NCBI RefSeq assembly: GCF_055900595.2
Contig: NZ_CM148325.1
Direction: 5' to 3' (one strand)
DNA: 64,000 nucleotides
The translations under genes and the position numbers were made by a program. Below the pieces are notes generated by a model. The model was given only the letters and a program-made list of their open reading frames with translations. It ran no database searches and was not told the origin of the DNA. Each line of letters begins with the position of its first letter. Within the stretch, counting starts at the first letter, position 1. Below are positions 2,253 through 13,122 of this stretch, one piece after another.

Positions 2253-3476
2253 TCATAAACACCATTTAAAACCATCATCCTGAACATCATACAACAATAT
2301 ATTTTTACTAAAGCATGAATTGTATACTTCTATTAATTCAGGAAAATTATCAGGATTCACCTTTAAATTCAACTGAATGTTACACTTAATTTCACTCAGC
2401 AGTTCTTCATGCGTGGATTTTATTATCCCTTTATCATAATCTATAAATACACACATGTTTTTCATGAATTCAAACCCTTTTCCTGTATACAGTTTGATGA
2501 ATGCCACAAGAGCAAACATTTCAAGATGCAGCCATAATGCCACGTGAGTTTTTCGCAAAGTATAAAAAATTGAATTCGCCACTTTTTTACTTATTGCTCT
2601 TTTGTACTGTGAGTGCGCCAGATTCAGTAGTGGCAATTCTCTCTCGATAAATGAAAGTGAAAAAGACGGGTAAATTGATGTCGGAAATATTTCAGGTCTT
2701 ATGATATTTTCGATTTCCACCATAAATCTATCCATAGAACGAAAATCATTTTCTTTTTTTATTCTGGTATAGAGACCGCCTTTATTCCTTACTGCGACTT
2801 TTTTTCGTGCTATCCCCCCCAACATTTCCTCTAATTGTTTATTTATCTTCGTATCATTAAATACAACCATTCTTCTTATCATCCTGGGAAGGATGATAAT
2901 ATCAGAGCTTGAATCACTTGAACGGCAATTATTATTGATCCATGCAACTTCAAGTTGAAGTATCGGAACATTAAATTCTCTGGGGTTAATAACTCTCTGA
3001 TATTGTTTTTTGTATGCGTTTTCATTAAGATATTCTCTGCTGTAGAGAAACTTATAGCAATATAATCTGACAATATCCTTTATGTAAGATTTAAATGAGT
3101 CACCTGTAACAGATATATTTTTTCTTCTCAGTAACTCCTGTGTATTGAGCCATTCCCGTGACCGGAGTACTCCATTATGAAGACTTTTTCTTACTTGCTT
3201 TGAATTGCGCAATTGATGTAATATTTTTGCGTCCTCAACAATTCTCTTTCCCGTTTGATTTCTTGCAGCATCTATTACTCTGTCAAATATCTCCCGGTCC
3301 AGACTTTTGTCATATTTACTGATTATACGACAAATATTCCTGACCCGACGGTTCTCTTTATTTCGTTTCCATAACTGATAATGATCATCACATAACCTCA
3401 GGGCATTTGCCTCATCAAATTCTGAAACAGGATTGCTGCATTTTTTATTCCGACAGATACCTTTGTTTTTAGCCAT
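2253..3476 (-). CDS. Hypothetical protein, 407 aa, strongly AT-rich, Lys/Asn/Ile-rich; N-terminal Cys-x4-Cys...Cys-x2-His motif; no family recognised
   Basis: Long uninterrupted ORF in ORF track; spot counts of lines give roughly 22-37% GC versus about 50% in flanking core genes; sits between YfjJ-like and YfjP-like island genes. Confidence 0.75.
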   Translation of the reverse strand: MAKNKGICRNKKCSNPVSEFDEANALRLCDDHYQLWKRNKENRRVRNICRIISKYDKSLDREIFDRVIDAARNQTGKRIVEDAKILHQLRNSKQVRKSLHNGVLRSREWLNTQELLRRKNISVTGDSFKSYIKDIVRLYCYKFLYSREYLNENAYKKQYQRVINPREFNVPILQLEVAWINNNCRSSDSSSDIIILPRMIRRMVVFNDTKINKQLEEMLGGIARKKVAVRNKGGLYTRIKKENDFRSMDRFMVEIENIIRPEIFPTSIYPSFSLSFIERELPLLNLAHSQYKRAISKKVANSIFYTLRKTHVALWLHLEMFALVAFIKLYTGKGFEFMKNMCVFIDYDKGIIKSTHEELLSEIKCNIQLNLKVNPDNFPELIEVYNSCFSKNILLYDVQDDGFKWCL

Positions 3477-3576: not shown

Positions 3577-4461
3577 ATGTCATTCAGCCATTCTTCCCTC
3601 TCCGCACACGTAAAGTCACATCTGACCTTTCTTCCTGAAGAAATTCGCCAGAAAATCCTTGAACATCTTCGCAGCGTCATTCAGTACGAACCCGTTATTG
3701 GCATTATGGGTAAATCCGGTGCCGGAAAAAGCAGCCTGTGCAATGCCATTTTTCAGTCCCGTGTCTGCGCCACGCATCCGCTGAACGGCTGCACCCGTCA
3801 GGCTCATCGTCTTACCTTTCAGCCCGGTGAACGAAGAATGACGCTGGTCGATCTGCCCGGCACTGGCGAAACACCACAGCATGATCAGGAATACCGGGCA
3901 CTTTACAGTCAGTTACTGCCCGAACTGGATCTGATTATCTGGATCCTGCGGGCTGATGAACGTGCGTATGCTGCCGACATCGCCATGCATCAGTTTTTAC
4001 TGAATGAAGGTGCCGATCCCTCGCGTTTTCTGTTTGTTCTCAGCCATGCCGATCGCATCCACCCGGCTGAAGAATGGAACAACCAGAGCAGCACGCCATC
4101 CCGTCAGCAGGAACTCTCACTGGCGACGGTGACAGCCCGGGTGGCAACCCTGTTCCCTTCATCATTTCCGGTACTCCCCATAGCCGCTCCTGCCGGCTGG
4201 AATCTTCCGGCATTTGTGTCTCTGATGATCCACGCCCTGCCACCACAGGCAACCAGCGCGGTTTATTCGCATATCCGGAATGAAAAGCGCACTGCGCAGG
4301 ATCAGCAACACGCACAGCAGGCTTTTGGTGACGCCATCGGCCAGAGTTTTGACGCTGCCATTGCCCGGTTCAGCTTTCCGGCCTGGATGCTGCAGCTTCT
4401 GCGCAAAGCCCGTGATCGCATTATCCGCCTGCTGATCACACTGTGGGATCGCCTGTTCTGA
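3577..4461 (+). CDS. Island GTPase, YfjP/YkfA/YeeP-like (P-loop GTP-binding protein)
   Basis: 294-aa ORF with Walker A motif GIMGKSGAGKSS; sequence resembles K-12 prophage GTPases YfjP/YkfA. Confidence 0.85.
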   Translation: MSFSHSSLSAHVKSHLTFLPEEIRQKILEHLRSVIQYEPVIGIMGKSGAGKSSLCNAIFQSRVCATHPLNGCTRQAHRLTFQPGERRMTLVDLPGTGETPQHDQEYRALYSQLLPELDLIIWILRADERAYAADIAMHQFLLNEGADPSRFLFVLSHADRIHPAEEWNNQSSTPSRQQELSLATVTARVATLFPSSFPVLPIAAPAGWNLPAFVSLMIHALPPQATSAVYSHIRNEKRTAQDQQHAQQAFGDAIGQSFDAAIARFSFPAWMLQLLRKARDRIIRLLITLWDRLF

Positions 4462-4646: not shown

Positions 4647-5465
4647 ATGCGATTAGCCAGTCGTTTTGGTTATGCGAACCAGATACGCCGTGACCGTCCG
4701 CTGACCCGTGAAGAGCTGATGCACCATGTGCCCGGGATTTTCGGGGAAGATAAACACACCTCCCGGAGCCGGAACTATACATACATCCCCACCATCACCG
4801 TGCTGGAAAGCCTGCAGCGGGAAGGCTTTCAGCCATTCTTCGCCTGCCAGACCCGCGTACGTGACCCGGGCCGCCGGGGGTATACCAAACACATGCTGCG
4901 TCTGCGCCGTGACGGGGAGATAAACGGACAACATGTCCCTGAAATTATTCTGCTCAACTCTCATGACGGTACCTCCAGCTACCAGATGCTGCCGGGTTAC
5001 TTCAGGTTCGTCTGCCAGAACGGATGCGTCTGCGGTCAGTCTCTGGGGGAAGTGCGTGTTCCGCACCGGGGAAATGTGGTGGACAGAGTCATTGAAGGGG
5101 CTTACGAGGTGGTGGGCGTGTTTGACCGGATAGAGGAGAAGCGTGATGCCATGCAGTCGCTGGTCCTGCCGCCACCGGCACGCCAGGCGCTGGCACAGGC
5201 GGCACTGACTTACCGTTATGGTGACGAACATCAGCCCGTCACCACCGCCGACATTCTGACACCACGACGCCGGGAGGATTACGGTAAGGACCTGTGGAGT
5301 GCTTATCAGACCATCCAGGAGAATATGCTGAAAGGCGGGATTTCCGGTCGCAGTGCAAAAGGAAAACGTATCCATACCCGGGCCATTCACAGCATTGATA
5401 CCGATATAAAACTCAACCGCGCATTGTGGGTGATGGCAGAAACGCTGCTTGAGAGCATGCGCTGA
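4647..5465 (+). CDS. DUF932-family island protein, YfjQ-like
   Basis: 272-aa ORF; position after the GTPase gene and similarity to YfjQ as recalled. Confidence 0.75.
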   Translation: MRLASRFGYANQIRRDRPLTREELMHHVPGIFGEDKHTSRSRNYTYIPTITVLESLQREGFQPFFACQTRVRDPGRRGYTKHMLRLRRDGEINGQHVPEIILLNSHDGTSSYQMLPGYFRFVCQNGCVCGQSLGEVRVPHRGNVVDRVIEGAYEVVGVFDRIEEKRDAMQSLVLPPPARQALAQAALTYRYGDEHQPVTTADILTPRRREDYGKDLWSAYQTIQENMLKGGISGRSAKGKRIHTRAIHSIDTDIKLNRALWVMAETLLESMR

Positions 5466-5546: not shown

Positions 5547-6026
5547 ATGAAAACCGTTTCTCAGAATACCCCCACAATTTATTCAGCTACAACACCAGAG
5601 AATAATCCGCCTCAGTTGGTTGCCAGCCTCGTCCCTGATGAACAGCGCATCAGCTTCTGGCCGCAGCATTTTGGCCTCATTCCACAGTGGGTGACCCTGG
5701 AGCCCCGTGTCTTCGGCTGGATGGACCGTCTGTGCGAAGACTACTGCGGTGGTATCTGGAATCTGTACACCCTGAACAACGGCGGGGCATTTATGGCCCC
5801 CGAACCGGATGATGATGATGACGAAACATGGGTACTGTTCAATGCCATGAACGGTAACCGCGCTGAAATGAGCCCGGAAGCCGCCGGCATTGCTGCCTGT
5901 CTGATGACGTACAGTCATCACGCCTGCCGTACGGAGTGTTATGCCATGACGGTTCATTATTACCGTCTGCGGGATTACGCCCTGCAGCATCCGGAATGCA
6001 GCGCCATTATGCGCATCATTGACTGA
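5547..6026 (+). CDS. Antirestriction protein, KlcA/ArdB-like (YfjX/YafX family)
   Basis: 159-aa ORF with acidic DDDDDE tract; conserved position preceding RadC-like gene in CP4-type islands. Confidence 0.75.
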   Translation: MKTVSQNTPTIYSATTPENNPPQLVASLVPDEQRISFWPQHFGLIPQWVTLEPRVFGWMDRLCEDYCGGIWNLYTLNNGGAFMAPEPDDDDDETWVLFNAMNGNRAEMSPEAAGIAACLMTYSHHACRTECYAMTVHYYRLRDYALQHPECSAIMRIID

Positions 6027-6041
6027 AAGGGGGCCGGAACA

Positions 6042-6518
6042 ATGCAACAGATTTCCTTTCTGCCCGGAGAAATGACAACCAGAGAGCGCAGCCTCATTCA
6101 GCGGGCCCTGAAAGCCCTGGACCGCCATCTTCATGAACCCGGCGTGGTCTTCACCTCCACGCATGCGGCACGGGAATGGCTGATTCTGAACATGGCGGGA
6201 CTGGAGCGTGAAGAATTCCGGGTGCTGTATCTGAACAACCAGAATCAGCTGATTGCCGGTGAAACCCTCTTCACCGGCACCATCAACCGCACGGAAGTCC
6301 ATCCCCGGGAAGTGATTAAACGCGCCCTGTACCACAATGCCGCTGCCGTGGTGCTGGCACACAATCACCCGTCCGGTGAAGTCACACCCAGTAAGGCAGA
6401 CCGCCTTATTACGGAACGTCTGGTACAGGCGCTGGCCCTGGTGGATATCCGGGTGCCGGACCATCTGATAGTCGGTGGCAGCCAGGTTTTCTCCTTTGCC
6501 GAACATGGTCTGCTTTAA
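6042..6518 (+). CDS. RadC-like JAB/JAMM domain protein (YfjY/YeeS/YkfG family)
   Basis: 158-aa ORF containing JAMM metal-binding motif HNHPSG...D (VVLAHNHPSGEVTPSKADRLITERL). Confidence 0.85.
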   Translation: MQQISFLPGEMTTRERSLIQRALKALDRHLHEPGVVFTSTHAAREWLILNMAGLEREEFRVLYLNNQNQLIAGETLFTGTINRTEVHPREVIKRALYHNAAAVVLAHNHPSGEVTPSKADRLITERLVQALALVDIRVPDHLIVGGSQVFSFAEHGLL

Positions 6519-6580
6519 CCCGTCACAACCACATCACACCTGTTTTCACTTTTATCTTCTGTCTTCAGAGGTATCCCATT

Positions 6581-6802
6581 ATGAAAATCATCACCCGTGG
6601 TGAAGCCATGCGTATTCACCAACAGCATCCTGCATCCCGTCTTTTTCCGTTCTGTACCGGCAAATACCGCTGGCACGGCAGCACTGAAACGTATACCGGT
6701 CGTGAAGTGCAGGATATTCCCGGTGTGCTGGCTGTGTTTGCAGAACGTCGTAAGGACAGTTTTGGCCCGTATGTCCGGCTGATGAGCGTCACCCTGAACT
6801 GA
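6581..6802 (+). CDS. DUF987 protein (YeeT/YpjJ/YkfH family)
   Basis: 73-aa ORF in conserved island position after RadC-like gene. Confidence 0.7.
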   Translation: MKIITRGEAMRIHQQHPASRLFPFCTGKYRWHGSTETYTGREVQDIPGVLAVFAERRKDSFGPYVRLMSVTLN

Positions 6803-6816
6803 GTCAGGGCATTCTG

Positions 6817-7447
6817 ATGAGCAGAATTATCACCATCACAGTGTATACGCTGGATGAACTTTCCTGCCCGGCACGGGAAAAAGCCCGCGACGGGTACCGT
6901 CAGCATCATGCTGACAGCAACTGGTATGAAAACGTGTATGAAGACTTCAGGGAGGTCTGTGGCATTTTCGGAATTGACCTCCGCCAGCGCGTTTTCCGGC
7001 TCAGCAACGGCAGGTTTATGGAGGAGCCGAGCATCTGGTTCAGCGGATTCTGCAGCCAGGGACGGAGCCTGTTTTGAAGGACGCTGGCACTGGCAGTCAG
7101 CAACAACCAGGAGAGTCCGGGAGTATGCCCCGCAGAACCGTGAGCTTCATCGTATCGCGGATGCCCTGCAGGCGGTGCAGAAACGTAACTTCTGGCAACT
7201 GCAGGCTGAAATCCACCACCGGGGACGTTACTGCCATCCGTTATCACTGTTACCCGGAACAGTCCGACTGGTCAGGCTATGACAGCCGATGCGGAAGCCG
7301 CTGTCAGCGAAGCCCTGCGCGACCTGGCCTTCTGGCTGTACCGTCAACTGGAAAACGAGTACGACCAGATGACCTCAGACGCCGCTGTGGATGAGGCCAT
7401 TCTCATCAATGCATACATCTTCACCGAAACCGGTCAGCGCACCGGCT
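6817..7447 (+). pseudogene. Island gene apparently disrupted by frameshifts (about 210 codons spread over three reading frames)
   Basis: Contiguous overlapping ORFs 6817-7077 (frame 1), 6854-7282 (frame 2), 7074-7394 (frame 3) and a frame-1 tail 7279-7447; pattern typical of a frameshifted gene. Identity not recognised. Confidence 0.35.
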
Positions 7448-7498
7448 GACCTGTCATCGTTAAACCATTCTTAACCACTTTTCAGAGAGGATTTTATC

Positions 7499-7867
7499 GT
7501 GTCAGACACACTCTCCGGGATAACTCATCCCGACGACAATCACGACCGCCCCTGGTGGGGGCTTCCCTGCACAGTGAGGCCCTGTTTTGGCGCCCGTCTG
7601 GTGCAGGAGGGTAACCGCCTGCATTACCTTGCCGACCGCGCCGGCATCAGAGGCCGGTTCAGCGATGCGGATGCATACCATCTGGACCAGGCCTTTCCGC
7701 TGCTGATGAAACAACTGGAACTCATGCTCACCAGCGGTGAACTGAATCCCCGCCATCAGCATACCGTCACGCTGTATGCAAAAGGGCTGACCTGCGAAGC
7801 CGACACCCTCGGCAGTTGTGGTTACGTTTATCTGGCTGTTTATCCGACGCCCGAAACGAAAAAGTAA
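7499..7867 (+). CDS. Type IV antitoxin, CbeA/YfjZ/YafW family
   Basis: 122-aa ORF MSDTLSGITHPDDNHDRPWWGLPCTV... closely resembles K-12 CbeA (YeeU)/YfjZ. Confidence 0.85.
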   Translation: MSDTLSGITHPDDNHDRPWWGLPCTVRPCFGARLVQEGNRLHYLADRAGIRGRFSDADAYHLDQAFPLLMKQLELMLTSGELNPRHQHTVTLYAKGLTCEADTLGSCGYVYLAVYPTPETKK

Positions 7868-7957
7868 ACCACCGGAATAACCTTCTGCTCCGGCCAGGTG
7901 TTTTCACCACGCCACTCTCCCCATAATTTAATCTCTCATATCAGGAAAATCTTCAGT

Positions 7958-8368
7958 ATGAAATTATTACCCGACACACATGTACGGGAGGCATCGTGCT
8001 GCCCGTCTCCCGTCACCATCTGGCAGACACTGCTCATCCGTCTGCTGGACCAGCACTATGGCCTCACACTGAATGACACACCGTTCGCTGATGAACGTGT
8101 GATTGAGCAGCATATTGAGGCCGGCATTTCACTGTGCGATGCGGTGAACTTTCTCGTTGAAAAATACGCACTGGTACGTACCGACCAGCCGGGATTCAGC
8201 GCAGGAGCCCCGTCGCAGTTAATCAACAGCATCGATATTCTCCGGGCCCGCCGGGCAACAGGCCTGATGACACGTAATAACTACAGAATGGTAAATAACA
8301 TTACCCTGGGTAGCATCCGGGGGCGAAACGATGAAACTTTCCCTGACGCTGGAAGCCGACAGCATTAA
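7958..8368 (+). CDS. Type IV toxin, CbtA/YpjF/YkfI family (cytoskeleton-inhibiting toxin)
   Basis: ORF from ATG at 7958 (MKLLPD...[60 protein letters not shown]...) matches CbtA-like toxins; immediately downstream of antitoxin. C-terminal extent uncertain. Confidence 0.8.
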
Positions 8369-8753
8369 CGTGCAGGCACTGAACATGGGGCGCATTGTCG
8401 TTGACATTGATGGTGTAAATCTCGCTGAACTGATTAACAAGGTCGCTGAATACGGTTATTCACTCCGCGTGGTGGATGAACGTGACGCTACCGAAACACC
8501 GGCGACTTCTGCCAGCTCTCATCAGTTGCCGGAAGACAATACAGTGATACAGAGCGTGATGCCATTAACCACTGAAACAGCGCTGGATATCCTCATTGCG
8601 TGGCTGCAGGACAATATCGACTGCGGGTCCGGAATTATTTTCGACAACGATGAGGATAAAACGGATTCGGCAGCACTGCTGCCCTGTATTGAACAGGCCA
8701 GGGAGGATATCCGTACCCTGCACCAACTGCAACTTCTGCACCAGAACCGGTGA
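8331..8753 (+). CDS. YeeW-like island protein
   Basis: 140-aa ORF following the toxin gene as in CP4-44/CP4-57 modules; assignment by position and recalled similarity. Confidence 0.55.
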
Positions 8754-8837
8754 ATCTCACTCACCAGACTTCATTCTCCTGACGCCAGCCTGAACAGAGC
8801 TGGCGTTTTCGTTTATAAACAGAAAGGAAACCCCATA

Positions 8838-9623
8838 ATGTCATATATCACAATCCCCCACCCGAACGCGGTCAACGGACATACAGCCGTTATCTGTTCC
8901 ACAAGTATCAGACACATCCTGGCTGTACGAAAGAGTACACTGCTGCAAATCGACACGCTTATCCGGCAACTGACAGAAATCTCAGCACTGACGGAAAGTA
9001 TTGGCGGTAAAGCCGCCCCGGACTGGGCGATGAAACAGAATTTTCGCTGTGGTTGCTGGCTGATGGAGAAACCAGAAACAGCAATGAAAGCCATTACCCG
9101 GAATCTTGACCGCGAAATCTGGCGTAACCTGATGCAGCGTTCCGGGATGCTTTCCTTAATGGATGCACAGGCACGTGATACATGGTACAGGTCACTGGAA
9201 TATGATAATTTTCCGGAAATCAGTGAAGCGAACATTCTGAGCACATTTGAACAACTGCACCAGAATAAGGATGAAGTGTTTGAGCGGGGGGTGATCAACC
9301 TCTTCAAAGGGCTGAGCTGGGATTACAAAACCAACTCACCCTGTAAATTTGGCAGTAAAATTATCGTCAACAATCTGGTGAGGTGGGACCAGTGGGGATT
9401 TCATCTTATCAGTGGAATGCAGGCAGATCGCCTGGCTGACCTGGAAAGAATGTTGCATCTGCTCAGCGGTAAACCGATCCCCGACAACCGGGGAATATCA
9501 CCATTAATCTGGATGACCACATACAGTCCGTTCAGGGTAAAGGACGCTATGAAGATGAGATGTTCATCATTAAATACTTTAAGAAGGGAGCTGCACACAT
9601 CACTTTCAAAAGGCTGGAGCTGA
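8838..9623 (+). CDS. Hypothetical island-terminal protein, 261 aa
   Basis: Uninterrupted ORF with plausible RBS context; last gene before the tRNA-fragment repeat. Family not recognised. Confidence 0.6.
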   Translation: MSYITIPHPNAVNGHTAVICSTSIRHILAVRKSTLLQIDTLIRQLTEISALTESIGGKAAPDWAMKQNFRCGCWLMEKPETAMKAITRNLDREIWRNLMQRSGMLSLMDAQARDTWYRSLEYDNFPEISEANILSTFEQLHQNKDEVFERGVINLFKGLSWDYKTNSPCKFGSKIIVNNLVRWDQWGFHLISGMQADRLADLERMLHLLSGKPIPDNRGISPLIWMTTYSPFRVKDAMKMRCSSLNTLRRELHTSLSKGWS

Positions 9624-9848: not shown

Positions 9849-10442
9849 CGTTTCAGGACGCCATGTGATTTAAGCGTTCTGCCTTCAAATCATTTCTAAC
9901 AATCTCAACCAAATTTTCCCTAATCGCCAGCATGTTACGGGTATACCCCAGCTCTGGGAAATTTATCCCTAAGCTATGAATGACTCTCACGAAATGTCGT
10001 GCGGCTGCGTGATGCAGTTGAAAATCAAATGATGTCATCAAGAGCTTAACGGTATCGTTGCCGATGACATATATAAAGCACAACCTCGGGCAGAACGCCG
10101 ACTGATGAGATTTTCTGAATGAGAACAAAGAGTAATGTCTCAGTTCGTTTGCTCATGCAAAGACTAATAATCCATGAAAATAGTAAGTGCTCTGAGAAAT
10201 TTTCCATGGATTATTTTCTGAACATTTTTCTTTGGCAAAGATGATGAATTTTGATGATAAGGAATATTACTTCTGGTTCTCAGTAAACTCCTTTCGTAAT
10301 ACTATGTAATCAAGAAGTTTATGGCGGGTAAAAATAACGTCTTACATTCACCAACAATATGTAAATAAACCCATCTATAGATGGTAAAAATAGGTCATGG
10401 CAATTATCATTGAACCATTCCCTTTTCGAATGAGTTTCTATT

Positions 10443-11152
10443 ATGCAACAACCTGTAGTTCGCGTTGGCGAATGGCTTGTTACTCCGTCCATAAACCAAA
10501 TTAGCCGCAATGGGCGTCAACTTACCCTTGAGCCGAGATTAATCGATCTTCTGGTTTTCTTTGCTCAACACAGTGGCGAAGTACTTAGCAGGGATGAACT
10601 TATCGATAATGTCTGGAAGAGAAGTATTGTCACCAATCACGTTGTGACGCAGAGTATCTCAGAACTACGTAAGTCATTAAAAGATAATGATGAAGATAGT
10701 CCTGTCTATATCGCTACTGTACCAAAGCGCGGCTATAAATTAATGGTGCCGGTTATCTGGTACAGCGAAGAAGAGGGAGAGGAAATAATGCTATCTTCGC
10801 CTCCCCCTATACCAGAGGCGGTTCCTGACACAGATTCTCCCTCCCAAAGTCTTAACATTCAAAACACCGCAACACCACCTGAACAATCCCCAGTTAAAAG
10901 CAAACGATTCACTACCTTTTGGGTATGGTTTTTTTTCCTGTTGTCGTTAGGTATCTGTGTAGCACTGGTAGCGTTTTCAAGTCTTGATACACGTCTTCCT
11001 ATGAGCAAATCGCGTATTTTGCTCAATCCACGCGATATTGACATTAATATGGTAAATAAAAGTTGTAACAGCTGGAGTTCCCCGTATCAGCTCTCTTACG
11101 CGATAGGCGTGGGTGATTTGGTGGCGACATCACTTAACACCTTCTCCACCTT
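10443..11152 (+). pseudogene. cadC: cadC 5' fragment (DNA-binding domain and transmembrane segment) truncated by IS1 insertion
   Basis: ORF MQQPVVRVGEWLVTPSINQISRNGRQLTLEPRLIDLL... equals CadC N-terminus; reading frame runs into IS1 and ends 6 codons later (VMLPTY-stop at 11174). Confidence 0.9.
11144..11152. repeat. IS1 target-site duplication, left copy (CTCCACCTT)
   Basis: Identical 9-bp sequence immediately flanks both IS1 ends. Confidence 0.85.
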
Positions 11153-11207
11153 GGTGATGCTGCCAACTTACTGATTTAGTGTATGATGGTGTTTTTGAGG
11201 TGCTCCA

Positions 11208-11483
11208 GTGGCTTCTGTTTCTATCAGCTGTCCCTCCTGTTCAGCTACTGACGGGGTGGTGCGTAACGGCAAAAGCACCGCCGGACATCAGCGCTATCTC
11301 TGCTCTCACTGCCGTAAAACATGGCAACTGCAGTTCACTTACACCGCTTCTCAACCCGGTACGCACCAGAAAATCATTGATATGGCCATGAATGGCGTTG
11401 GATGCCGGGCAACTGCCCGCATTATGGGCGTTGGCCTCAACACGATTTTACGTCACTTAAAAAACTCAGGCCGCAGTCGGTAA
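11208..11483 (+). CDS. insA: IS1 InsA (transposition repressor / N-terminal part of InsAB' transposase)
   Basis: 91-aa [94 protein letters not shown]. Confidence 0.95.
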
Positions 11484-11905
11484 CCTCGCGCATACAGCCG
11501 GGCAGTGACGTCATCGTCTGTGCGGAAATGGACGAACAGTGGGGCTATGTCGGGGCTAAATCGCGCCAGCGCTGGCTGTTTTACGCGTATGACAGGCTCC
11601 GGAAGACGGTTGTTGCGCACGTATTCGGTGAACGCACTATGGCGACGCTGGGGCGTCTTATGAGCCTGCTGTCACCCTTTGACGTGGTGATATGGATGAC
11701 GGATGGCTGGCCGCTGTATGAATCCCGCCTGAAGGGAAAGCTGCACGTAATCAGCAAGCGATATACGCAGCGAATTGAGCGGCATAACCTGAATCTGAGG
11801 CAGCACCTGGCACGGCTGGGACGGAAGTCGCTGTCGTTCTCAAAATCGGTGGAGCTGCATGACAAAGTCATCGGGCATTATCTGAACATAAAACACTATC
11901 AATAA
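11402..11905 (+). CDS. insB: IS1 InsB (C-terminal part of InsAB' transposase)
   Basis: 167-aa ORF matching IS1 InsB (…[33 protein letters not shown]…). Confidence 0.95.
11457..11465 (+). promoter_or_regulatory. IS1 programmed -1 ribosomal frameshift site (A6C motif TTAAAAAAC)
   Basis: Sequence TTAAAAAAC at the insA/insB overlap, the known site producing InsAB' transposase. Confidence 0.75.
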
Positions 11906-11920
11906 GTTGGAGTCATTACC

Positions 11921-11929
11921 CTCCACCTT
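11921..11929. repeat. IS1 target-site duplication, right copy (CTCCACCTT)
   Basis: Identical to 11144-11152. Confidence 0.85.
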
Positions 11930-12758
11930 TATGGTGCATGACAAAATCAACTACAACATTGATGAACCGAGCAGTTCCGGTAAAACATTATCTATTGCGT
12001 TTGTTAATCAGCGCCAATACCGTGCTCAACAATGCTTTATGTCGGTAAAATTGGTAGACAATGCAGATGGTTCAACCATGCTGGATAAACGTTATGTCAT
12101 CACTAACGGTAATCAGCTGGCGATTCAAAATGATTTACTGGAGAGTTTATCAAAAGCGTTAAACCAACCGTGGCCACAACGAATGCAGGAGATGCTCCAG
12201 CAAATTTTGCCTCATCGTGGTGCGTTATTAACTAATTTTTATCAGGCACATGATTATTTACTGCATGGCGATGATAAATCATTGAACCGTGCCAGTGAAT
12301 TACTAGGTGAGATTGTTCAATCATCCCCCGAATTTACCTACGCGAGAGCAGAAAAAGCATTAGTTGATATCGTGCGCCATTCTCAACATCCTTTAGATGA
12401 AAAACAATTAGCAGCACTGAATACAGAAATAGATAACATTGTTACACTGCCGGAATTGAACAACCTGTCCATTATATATCAAATAAAAGCGGTCAGTGCT
12501 CTGGTAAAAGGTAAAACAGATGAGTCTTACCAGGCGATAAATACTGGCATTGATCTTGAAATGTCCTGGCTAAATTATGTGTTGCTTGGCAAGGTTTATG
12601 AAATGAAGGGGATGAACCGGGAAGCAGCTGATGCATATCTCACCGCCTTTAATTTACGCCCAGGGGCAAACACCCTTTACTGGATTGAAAATGGTATATT
12701 CCAGACTTCTGTTCCTTATGTTGTACCTTATCTCGACAAATTTCTCGCCTCAGAATAA
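11921..12758 (+). pseudogene. cadC: cadC 3' fragment (periplasmic sensor domain) separated from its 5' part by IS1
   Basis: Frame reading STFMVHDKINYNIDEPSSSGKTLSIAFVNQRQYRAQQCF... to stop at 12758 matches the CadC periplasmic domain. Confidence 0.9.
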
Positions 12759-13122
12759 GTGACTCCCGGGTTGACTCATGCTCGGGAATATTTGTTGTTG
12801 ATTTTTTGTATGTTATTGTTGGTATAATATGTTGCGGCAATTTATTTGCCGCATAATTTTTATCACATAAATTTAACCATGGAATATTCTGCAATCTATT
12901 GTAAACATTGAATGTTTATCTTTTCATGATATCAACTTGCGATCCTGATGTGTTAATAAAAAACCTCAAGTTCTCACTTACAGAAACTTTTGTGTTATTT
13001 CACCTAATCTTTAGGATTAATCTTTTTTTTTGAGTAATCTTGTCGCCAGTTTGGTCTGGTCAGTAAATAGTTACGCATCATGACCCGGACTCCAAATTCA
13101 AAAATGAAATTAGGAGAAGAGC
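12759..13122 (+). promoter_or_regulatory. cadBA promoter region (Pcad; CadC-binding region inferred)
   Basis: AT-rich 364-bp intergenic region upstream of cadB; position-based inference from the known cad operon organisation, individual sites not mapped. Confidence 0.45.

What the first reader, a model, noticed from the sequence alone, without database searches (positions are those of the whole stretch)
6817..7447. Island gene apparently inactivated by two frameshifts
Three overlapping ORFs in three frames cover one contiguous roughly 630-bp stretch between the DUF987 gene and the antitoxin gene, the pattern expected from a gene broken by indels. I do not recognise the family. It may be decayed cargo or a sequencing artefact in homopolymer tracts.
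Basis: seen in the sequence. Interest (0 to 1): 0.3.

Follow-up and report, generated by a model that had tools for sequence, protein, structure and literature searches.

The report
Broken DUF8835 island gene (pseudogene)
This stretch is the dead remnant of one 214-codon mobile-element gene of unknown function, knocked out by a 2-base and a 10-base deletion; many other E. coli genomes carry the same lesions, already annotated as a pseudogene, so the finding is real but ordinary.

Summary
Window 6817-7449 (+), between the DUF987/yeeT gene and the cbeA antitoxin gene, is covered by overlapping ORFs in all three frames.

It is one gene, a member of the 214-aa family that RefSeq calls "antitoxin of toxin-antitoxin stability system" or DUF8835. 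Two deletions relative to intact 645-bp E. coli alleles broke it:
- **First lesion:** GG lost from a G5 run (now G3 at 7059-7061). It destroys the family's most conserved motif, SQGDGA, and gives a stop at 7075-7077.
- **Second lesion:** the 10 bases ACAGCATGGA lost between 7241 and 7242.

Gene information lies in frame 1 (codons 1-82), frame 2 (84-142) and frame 1 again (147-214). This reconstruction is 89-92% identical to intact proteins. The frame-3 ORF (7074-7394) is a chance ORF.

It is not a sequencing artefact:
- 31 independent complete genomes carry both lesions.
- Other genomes carry only one lesion, or the 10-base lesion plus an extra 5-base deletion.
- PGAP flags every broken allele I inspected as "frameshifted".

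The neighbouring island genes are also decayed.

The intact family is uncharacterised, with no Pfam hit and no solved-fold relative. Its conserved neighbours are the SSB/DUF932/RadC block of conjugative elements, not a toxin. The "antitoxin" name is therefore unsupported.

Low interest; already known.

The parts
6817..7062 (+). Pseudogene segment 1, frame 1: codons 1-82 of the ancestral 214-codon gene (ATG at 6817).
   Evidence: Translation MSRIITITVY...FSGFCSQG aligns to residues 1-82 of the intact proteins.
7059..7061 (+). Lesion 1: the G-run is G3 here and G5 in intact alleles, a 2-bp deletion. It falls inside the codons for Q81-G82-D83-G84 of the conserved SQGDGA motif.
   Evidence: Alignments A1, columns 246-247. 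The motif's conservation is shown.
7075..7077 (+). Premature TGA stop in frame 1, five codons after lesion 1. It ends the 86-aa N-terminal ORF.
   Evidence: In intact alleles the same bases are read as TGT TTT GAA.
7064..7240 (+). Pseudogene segment 2, frame 2: codons 84-142 of the ancestral gene. It has no start codon of its own near the segment.
   Evidence: Translation GACFEGRWHW...RGRYCHP aligns to residues 84-142.
7241..7242 (+). Lesion 2: junction of a 10-bp deletion (ACAGCATGGA in intact alleles). It removes codons 143-146 (YSMD) just after the conserved YxH motif and returns reading to frame 1.
   Evidence: Alignments A1, columns 431-440.
7243..7449 (+). Pseudogene segment 3, frame 1: codons 147-214 plus the native stop. 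It contains the 56-aa ORF 7279..7449, which starts at the native internal Met159.
7074..7394 (+). Frame-3 ORF of 106 aa. It is a chance ORF and not part of the gene.
   Evidence: Local score 24 against the intact protein, compared with a shuffle mean of 26.5. No Pfam or NCBIfam hit.
6942..7030 (+). An 89-bp patch holding all 7-8 substitutions that separate the window's allele from the other double-lesion alleles. At most of these sites the window carries the base seen in intact paralogues, so this is probably a gene-conversion tract.
7337..7449 (+). The 3' 113 bp of the gene. This is the only part retained, directly after the yeeT stop codon, in islands such as those of O157:H7 that lack the gene.
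   Evidence: (H72-H90).
6581..6802 (+). Upstream neighbour: DUF987 (yeeT-like) gene, intact.
7499..7867 (+). Downstream neighbour: CbeA/YeeU type IV antitoxin gene, intact.

Best explanation
Window 6817-7449 is a pseudogene of a single 214-codon gene of the DUF8835 family, which RefSeq also labels 'antitoxin of toxin-antitoxin stability system'. The gene sits in a CP4-type integrative island, in the order DUF932, antirestriction, RadC, DUF987, this gene, cbeA, cbtA. Two real, inherited deletions inactivated it. The first removed GG from a G5 run (7059-7061). It shifts the frame inside the family's most conserved motif and produces a stop at 7075-7077. The second removed 10 bp at 7241|7242. Together the deletions total -12 bp, so the first and last thirds share frame 1 and the middle 59 codons lie in frame 2. 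No full-length product can be made by normal translation. The lesions are young: the alleles that carry them barely differ from one another. They have been shuffled among paralogous island copies by recombination. By inference, the intact protein is an accessory 'establishment' factor of conjugative elements and phages, possibly with an anti-defence role. It is not a dedicated antitoxin, and it is dispensable once the island is fixed and decaying in the chromosome.
For: Shown:
- Alignment to intact 645-bp alleles (Nissle 1917 WP_000094915.1, 17MR471 WP_065304415.1, isolateI WP_000086752.1) reveals exactly two gaps, -2 and -10.
- The frameshift-aware translation is 89-92% identical to the intact proteins over all three segments.
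- PGAP marks the identical-length locus as a 'frameshifted' pseudogene.
- 31 complete E. coli genomes carry the 633-bp double-lesion allele. Ch1 and GPEC1040 carry only the 10-bp deletion. TUM9803 and ERP001 carry only the 2-bp deletion. ACN002 carries the 10-bp deletion plus a further 5-bp deletion, and three more genomes have the same 630-bp length.
- Intact alleles evolve under purifying selection (dN/dS 0.18-0.28). The window against intact alleles gives 0.34-0.36.
- Lesion 1 removes D83 and displaces the invariant G84 and A85.
- Neighbouring island genes are also damaged: cbtA has a 1-bp deletion, DUF5983 and DUF4942 are truncated, and only an integrase remnant is left.

Inferred function of the intact family:
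- It is a large family, with 3,572 representatives of 50%-identity clusters.
- Its members are acidic, with a median pI of 4.8.
- It occurs on 105 plasmids, 41 of them typed conjugative, and in 61 phage records. In the giant Caulobacter phages it lies within the terminal repeats.
- It shows conserved synteny with SSB, DUF932, RadC, ArdC, ParB and a methyltransferase/helicase gene in alphaproteobacterial elements that have no toxin nearby.
- Such gene sets are what PMC11541004 describes for plasmid leading regions.
Confidence: 0.93

Rival explanations
1. The frameshifts are sequencing or assembly artefacts in homopolymer tracts, and the gene is intact in the real genome.
For: Lesion 1 lies in a G homopolymer. 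No reads are available for this window.
Against: Both lesions are present base for base in 31 independent complete assemblies from different laboratories, hosts and countries. Alleles with only one of the two lesions exist. Lesion 2 is a 10-bp deletion in non-repetitive sequence. Lesion 1 is a 2-base loss rather than the usual 1-base homopolymer error.
Confidence: 0.02
2. The gene is expressed through programmed ribosomal frameshifting: a +1 shift near 7072-7077 and a -1 shift near 7241-7282. The product would be near full length.
For: After lesion 1, frame 1 reads CUG UUU UGA with GGAG four bases upstream (7064-7067). A +1 slip of tRNA-Phe on UUUU at a slowly decoded UGA would re-enter the native frame after only four aberrant codons. 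This rests on direct reading of the sequence and on my own knowledge of the prfB-type site.
Against: The same bases are ordinary TGT TTT GAA codons in intact alleles, so the site is accidental. About 1,900 E. coli genomes hold a copy covering at least 80% of the query, and every copy I sampled outside the roughly 40 top-ranked lesion alleles is about 645 bp with neither deletion; distant homologues are 214-aa single-frame proteins. I see no X XXY YYZ heptamer between 7238 and 7282 for the second shift (direct reading). Even if translation were rescued, D83, G84 and A85 and residues 143-146 would be missing. Single-lesion alleles exist.
Confidence: 0.02
3. The ORFs are genuinely separate small genes, or the surviving fragments (the 86-aa N-terminal ORF 6817..7077 and the 56-aa C-terminal ORF 7279..7449) keep a function of their own.
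For: The N-terminal ORF keeps its native start and the two N-terminal helices of the predicted fold. The C-terminal ORF starts at a native Met. Truncated products of similar size appear as called proteins in public data, for example P0254 at 87 aa.
Against: All the coding signal maps to one protein family in collinear order. The AF2 model is a single compact domain whose beta-sheet and C-terminal helices need all three segments. The frame-3 ORF has no homologue and no family hit. Homologues are single proteins of about 214 aa.
Confidence: 0.04
4. Lesion 1 is a phase-variable contingency switch, with slipped-strand mispairing in the G tract turning the gene on and off.
For: The indel lies in a G-run, and alleles with G5 and with G3 both circulate.
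Against: The tract is only 3-5 bases long. Only two lengths were seen, differing by 2 with no +/-1 intermediates, in the 13 alleles aligned. The G3 state co-occurs with a second, non-repeat lesion that would make switching pointless.
Confidence: 0.01

Closest known systems
RefSeq/PGAP pseudogene 'antitoxin of toxin-antitoxin stability system' / 'DUF8835 domain-containing protein', note 'frameshifted' (e.g. AM464_RS30715 in E. coli AR_0085, KZY06_RS26325 in PK8276, ACYX38_RS21225 in GPEC389)
   Same: Same locus and same 633-bp length, with the same 2-bp and 10-bp deletions. The island context next to cadC is the same, and identity is 98.6-98.9%.
   Different: The window's allele differs at 7-8 substitutions, all within 6942-7030. 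The window also has an IS1 in cadC that GPEC389, the genome I compared, lacks.
Intact E. coli alleles: WP_000094915.1 (Nissle 1917), WP_065304415.1 (17MR471), WP_000086752.1 (isolateI)
   Same: Same position between the DUF987 gene and cbeA. They are about 92% identical in DNA, and 89-92% identical in protein after frameshift correction.
   Different: They are 645 bp in a single frame and encode 214 aa, with the SQGDGA motif and residues 143-146 present.
phrog_5162 (phage protein family of unknown function)
   Same: The intact protein matches across its whole length (E 9e-35, residues 3-210). Phage homologues are about 200 aa.
   Different: The relationship is distant (about 32-38% identity). 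The phage copies lie in early or terminal-repeat regions, not beside a toxin-antitoxin pair.
CbeA/YeeU type IV antitoxin (PF06154), the adjacent gene
   Same: It is the neighbouring gene in enterobacterial islands and is probably co-transcribed. Rare 342-343-aa proteins joining the two are on record.
   Different: No sequence similarity: the intact protein has no PF06154 hit. The sizes differ (214 against about 122 aa). Relatives outside the Enterobacteria have no CbeA or CbtA nearby.
Phd/YefM/StbD-type antitoxins, the usual bearers of the phrase 'antitoxin of toxin-antitoxin stability system'
   Same: Only the database product name is shared.
   Different: No PF02604 hit or any other Pfam hit. 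The predicted fold is a 214-aa alpha/beta domain with no solved relative. The full-text search found no paper on this 214-aa family under either product name.

Membership tests
DUF8835 / 214-aa 'antitoxin of toxin-antitoxin stability system' family (phrog_5162) | Collinear sequence homology to the proteins of about 214 aa over their whole length | tested here: met
   After correction for the two deletions, identity to three intact E. coli proteins is 89-92% over residues 1-82, 84-142 and 147-214.
DUF8835 / 214-aa 'antitoxin of toxin-antitoxin stability system' family (phrog_5162) | A single uninterrupted ORF of about 214 codons | tested here: not met
   The frame is broken at 7059-7061 and at 7241|7242, with a stop at 7075-7077. 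It is therefore a pseudogene member, not a functional one.
DUF8835 / 214-aa 'antitoxin of toxin-antitoxin stability system' family (phrog_5162) | Conserved core motif SGFxSQGDGAxFEG (Q81, G82, D83 nearly invariant; G84, A85 invariant) | tested here: not met
   Lesion 1 falls inside the motif. Frame 1 reads SQGRSLF followed by a stop.
DUF8835 / 214-aa 'antitoxin of toxin-antitoxin stability system' family (phrog_5162) | Synteny downstream of DUF932 and RadC within a mobile element | tested here: met
   The window order is DUF932 4647..5465, antirestriction 5547..6026, RadC 6042..6518, DUF987 6581..6802, then this gene. The same DUF932-RadC-...-gene order occurs on alphaproteobacterial plasmids.
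Bona fide antitoxin of a toxin-antitoxin system | Homology to a known antitoxin family | tested here: not met
   No Pfam, NCBIfam or PADLOC hit for the intact proteins. No consistent Pfam hit across 44 diverse members.
Bona fide antitoxin of a toxin-antitoxin system | Conserved adjacency to a cognate toxin gene across the family | tested here: not met
   It is adjacent to cbeA/cbtA only in Enterobacteria. In the Mesorhizobium chromosome and the two alphaproteobacterial plasmids examined no toxin gene lies near it; in one metagenome contig a weak Phd/YefM-type antitoxin hit lies about 3.7 kb upstream, but not beside it. The phage copies are annotated only as hypothetical proteins, and their neighbours were not examined.
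Bona fide antitoxin of a toxin-antitoxin system | Neutralises the toxin's activity | not testable with these tools
   This needs co-expression with CbtA in vivo.
Programmed-frameshift gene (prfB-, dnaX- or IS3-like) | The frameshift is conserved among homologues | tested here: not met
   Homologues are single-frame proteins of about 214 aa. The shifts correspond to deletions relative to those homologues.
Programmed-frameshift gene (prfB-, dnaX- or IS3-like) | Slippery sequence and stimulator at each shift site | tested here: inconclusive
   A UUU UGA context with an upstream GGAG exists after lesion 1, but it is native coding sequence in intact alleles. I see no heptamer for the second shift (direct reading).
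Phase-variable contingency locus | Long simple-sequence tract with +/-1-unit length polymorphism | tested here: not met
   The tract is G3 or G5 only, and the second lesion is not in a repeat.

The most novel reading that the evidence does not exclude
The broken gene belongs to a large, acidic, structurally unclassified protein family (DUF8835/phrog_5162; confident AF2 model with no solved-fold neighbour). The family is mislabelled as an antitoxin. It may instead be an early-entry establishment or anti-defence factor, shared by conjugative plasmids and ICEs (always with SSB, DUF932 and RadC) and by phages (inside the terminal repeats of giant Caulobacter phages). Its repeated loss in E. coli CP4-type islands would then mark relaxed selection once the element stops moving. 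That loss takes several forms: this double deletion, single-lesion alleles, an internal stop codon, and the 534-bp deletion that leaves only 113 bp in O157-type islands.
Probability: 0.3. Interest if true: 0.45.

Novelty: already known. Interest (0 to 1): 0.1.

Why it matters
For this locus the result matters very little. It is a correctly recognisable pseudogene that RefSeq already flags in near-identical islands. Its main use is as an annotation note: one pseudogene, not three small genes.

Two side-points have modest value. First, the product name "antitoxin of toxin-antitoxin stability system" is not supported by homology or by conserved gene context, and it should not be used to count toxin-antitoxin systems. 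Second, the intact family is abundant, strongly conserved, confidently foldable and wholly uncharacterised. It sits in the gene block of mobile elements where anti-defence functions are now being found, so it is a reasonable candidate for experimental screening.

Tried and rejected
- **Fragment searches:** Pfam and NCBIfam on each fragment ORF gave no meaningful hit.
- **Intact-protein searches:** Pfam, NCBIfam and PADLOC on the intact proteins, and Pfam on 44 diverse members, gave no consistent hit. The held Pfam copy predates DUF8835.
- **Solved structures by sequence:** a single-sequence search and a profile search of the PDB found nothing below E 0.2.
- **Literature:** "antitoxin of toxin-antitoxin stability" gave 7 papers, none of which appears, from its title and abstract, to concern this 214-aa family; "DUF8835" gave none.
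- **Promoter idea:** I asked whether the conserved 3' 113 bp holds a cbeA promoter. No sigma-70-like site was found in 6500-8000, so this is unsupported.
- **RNA and minus strand:** there is no Rfam hit in 6400-8000. The minus-strand ORFs 6906..7247, 6616..6909, 7097..7237 and 7228..7347 have no Pfam hit and are treated as chance antisense ORFs.
- **Rejected readings:** sequencing artefact, programmed frameshifting, phase variation and three separate genes. The reasons are given under the rival explanations.

Full report
**Observation.** On the + strand, one search lists ORFs at 6817..7077 (frame 1, 86 aa), 6854..7282 (frame 2, 142 aa), 7074..7394 (frame 3, 106 aa) and 7279..7449 (frame 1, 56 aa). 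Together they tile a 633-bp stretch. Pfam confirms the flanks: DUF987 at 6581..6802 and a CbeA/YeeU antitoxin at 7499..7867, followed by CbtA toxin at 7958..8368. Upstream lie RadC (6042..6518), an antirestriction gene (5547..6026) and DUF932 (4647..5465). None of the fragment ORFs hits Pfam or NCBIfam on its own.

**What it is.** A megablast of the region against complete E. coli genomes finds the same locus in many strains. The product name is "antitoxin of toxin-antitoxin stability system" or, in newer annotations, "DUF8835 domain-containing protein". Alleles about 92% identical but 645 bp long are annotated as intact 214-aa proteins in the same position between DUF987 and cbeA. Examples are Nissle 1917 WP_000094915.1, 17MR471 WP_065304415.1 and isolateI WP_000086752.1.

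**The lesions.** Aligning the window with these alleles (A1; a wider set) shows exactly two gaps.
- **Lesion 1:** the intact sequence CCAGGGGGACGG is CCAGGGACGG here. Two G's are lost from a G5 run, leaving G3 at 7059-7061.
- **Lesion 2:** the ten bases ACAGCATGGA are missing between 7241 and 7242.

The total is -12 bp, so the first and last parts share frame 1 and the middle part is in frame 2.

**Frameshift-aware reconstruction.** Translating 6817-7062, 7064-7240 and 7243-7449 yields residues 1-82, 84-142 and 147-214. These are 89-92% identical to the three intact proteins. Local alignment scores against an intact protein are 431, 337 and 235 for the frame-1 N-terminal, frame-2 and frame-1 C-terminal ORFs, against about 28 +/- 5 for shuffled sequences. 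The frame-3 ORF scores 24, no better than shuffles, so it is a chance ORF.

**Consequences for the protein.** Lesion 1 falls inside the codons for Q81-G82-D83-G84. This is the centre of the family's best-conserved motif, SGFxSQGDGAxFEG: G84 and A85 are invariant, and Q81, G82 and D83 are conserved in at least 42 of 44 diverse members. Frame 1 then reads ...SQGRSLF and stops at 7075-7077. Lesion 2 removes residues 143-146, directly after the conserved Y139-x-H141. The AF2 model of the intact protein is a single compact alpha/beta domain (pLDDT 95, pTM 0.87) built from all three segments. Neither fragment would be expected to fold as the native protein.

**Real mutation or artefact?** The best-hit list for the 633-bp query shows these classes of allele:

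| Allele length | Genomes | Lesions |
|---|---|---|
| 633 bp | 31 complete genomes (chicken, human, pig and wild-bird isolates from many countries) | both deletions |
| 635 bp | Ch1, GPEC1040 | 10-bp deletion only |
| 643 bp | TUM9803, ERP001 | 2-bp deletion only |
| 630 bp | ACN002, plus three more genomes of the same length | 10-bp deletion plus a further 5-bp deletion (aligned for ACN002 only) |

PGAP flags every broken allele I fetched as frameshifted. The lesions are therefore heritable alleles. They segregate separately on mosaic backgrounds, which indicates recombination among the paralogous island copies; genomes hold up to 8 places matching this gene. The window's own allele is identical to the other double-lesion alleles except for 7-8 substitutions, all within 6942-7030. 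At most of those sites it carries the base found in intact paralogues, which looks like a conversion patch. The artefact alternative is rejected, although I could not see the reads for this assembly.

**Selection.** Intact alleles show dN/dS of 0.18-0.28 among themselves. The window against intact alleles gives 0.34-0.36. This fits a functional gene that was inactivated recently.

**Context of decay.** The island lies next to cadC-cadBA, and its right-hand part is eroded.
- cbtA has a 1-bp deletion near 8311/8312 that rewrites its C-terminus. PGAP marks the toxin "frameshifted" in near-identical islands.
- The DUF5983 and DUF4942 genes are truncated, and only an integrase fragment remains.

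"Decayed cargo" is the right description.

**What the intact gene may do (inference).**
- **Size and spread.** The family is large: 2,618 proteins in the 90% clusters and 3,572 representatives of 50% clusters. Members are about 205-225 aa and occur in Enterobacteria and many Alphaproteobacteria, among others.
- **Phage relatives.** It matches phrog_5162, of unknown function.
- **Composition.** Members are acidic, with a median pI of 4.8 and a median net charge of -14.
- **Gene context outside Enterobacteria.** A Mesorhizobium chromosomal element has ArdC, DUF2958, ParB..., the gene, DUF4326, an AAA_34 helicase and Toprim. A metagenome contig has ParB..., DUF6878, DUF6915, the gene and AAA_34. 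Alphaproteobacterial plasmids have SSB, a nuclease, DUF932, RadC, DUF6878, three small ORFs, the gene, and then a methyltransferase/helicase and toprim.
- **Plasmids and phages.** It is on 105 plasmids, 41 of them typed conjugative, and in 61 phage records. In the giant Caulobacter phages it lies inside the terminal repeats and is therefore present twice.
- **Link to the toxin-antitoxin pair.** Only in Enterobacteria is it beside cbeA/cbtA. In Klebsiella michiganensis it lies between them, and 342-343-aa proteins joining it to a CbeA domain are on record.

The conserved partnership is thus with the SSB/DUF932/RadC/antirestriction block, which matches the composition reported for plasmid leading regions (PMC11541004). 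I therefore favour an establishment or anti-defence accessory role, at roughly 0.3-0.4 confidence. I regard the "antitoxin" name as unsupported. The full-text search found no paper on this family under either product name.

**Alternatives considered.**
- **Programmed frameshifting.** After lesion 1, frame 1 reads CUG UUU UGA with GGAG just upstream, which superficially resembles the prfB +1 site. However, the same bases are ordinary TGT TTT GAA codons in intact alleles. There is no slippery heptamer for the second shift. Homologues are single-frame, and single-lesion alleles exist.
- **Phase variation.** The tract is only G3 or G5, with no +/-1 intermediates, and the second lesion is not in a repeat.
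- **Separate small genes.** All the coding signal is collinear with one protein.
- **Non-coding or antisense function.** There is no Rfam hit, no sigma-70-like promoter and no family hit for the minus-strand ORFs.

**Verdict.** The finding is correct and ordinary. It is a recently inactivated pseudogene of a DUF8835-family gene in a decaying CP4-type island, already flagged as such in RefSeq. Interest is low (0.1) and the novelty class is "already known". The only mildly interesting residue is the uncharacterised and probably misnamed family itself.

Noticed in passing
window 10410-12764 (insertion 11144-11920): cadC is interrupted by a 777-bp insertion: IS1 (IRL GGTGATGCTGCC...; InsB ORF 11402..11905) plus a 9-bp target duplication, CTCCACCTT. 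The CadC N-terminal part is ORF 10443..11174 and the C-terminal part is 11907..12758. GPEC389, the closest E. coli genome and the one I aligned, has an intact cadC. Insertional loss of cadC is typical of Shigella/EIEC-like lineages (from my own knowledge).
   Followed up: partly
window 7958-8368: The cbtA toxin gene has a 1-bp deletion near 8311/8312. It replaces the last ~7 residues and extends the ORF to 136 aa, running into the next gene. The CbtA Pfam domain (1-112) is still complete. PGAP marks this toxin 'frameshifted' in near-identical islands.
   Followed up: partly
window 8331-9623 and on to about 10400: The right end of the island is eroded. ORF 8331..8753 has only the DUF5983 N-terminal domain; related genomes annotate a truncated DUF5983 gene followed by a separate DUF957 gene there. 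DUF4942 (8838..9623) is truncated or frameshifted. Related genomes annotate only a 160-bp integrase remnant before cadC.
   Followed up: partly
window 7337-7449; L015:1501-1613, L016:1501-1613: In islands with the classical yeeS-yeeT-yeeU-yeeV order (e.g. O157:H7), the 'intergenic' region between the yeeT-like and yeeU-like genes begins with the last 113 bp of this DUF8835 gene, joined directly to the yeeT stop codon. It is the relic of a 534-bp deletion. About 885 of the 2,827 E. coli genomes with any match have no copy covering 80% or more of the gene.
   Followed up: partly
L021/L022:5610-6996 (Klebsiella michiganensis); proteins P0004, P0005, P0017 and others: In K. michiganensis islands the DUF8835 gene lies between cbeA and cbtA rather than upstream of cbeA. 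Several 342-343-aa E. coli proteins on record join DUF8835 to a CbeA domain. This may hint at a lineage-specific functional link to the toxin-antitoxin module, or may simply reflect read-through fusions.
   Followed up: no
phage hits H207-H223; plasmid loci L029, L030: Homologues of the intact protein lie inside the terminal repeats of giant Caulobacter phages (CcrPW/CcrBL9 type), so they are present twice per genome. On alphaproteobacterial plasmids they lie in an SSB, DUF932, RadC, DUF6878..., gene, methyltransferase/helicase block. The AF2 model (pLDDT 95) has no solved structural neighbour.
   Followed up: partly
window 7064-7077: After the 2-bp deletion, frame 1 reads GGAG-CCUG-UUU-UGA. 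This is a prfB-like +1 slippage context that would re-enter the native frame after four aberrant codons. I judge it coincidental because the same bases are ordinary codons in intact alleles.
   Followed up: partly
window 2253-3476 (- strand): A 407-aa ORF on the opposite strand, upstream of the YfjP-like GTPase gene (3577..4461), has no Pfam hit. It is annotated 'hypothetical protein' (WP_059328212.1) in GPEC389.
   Followed up: no
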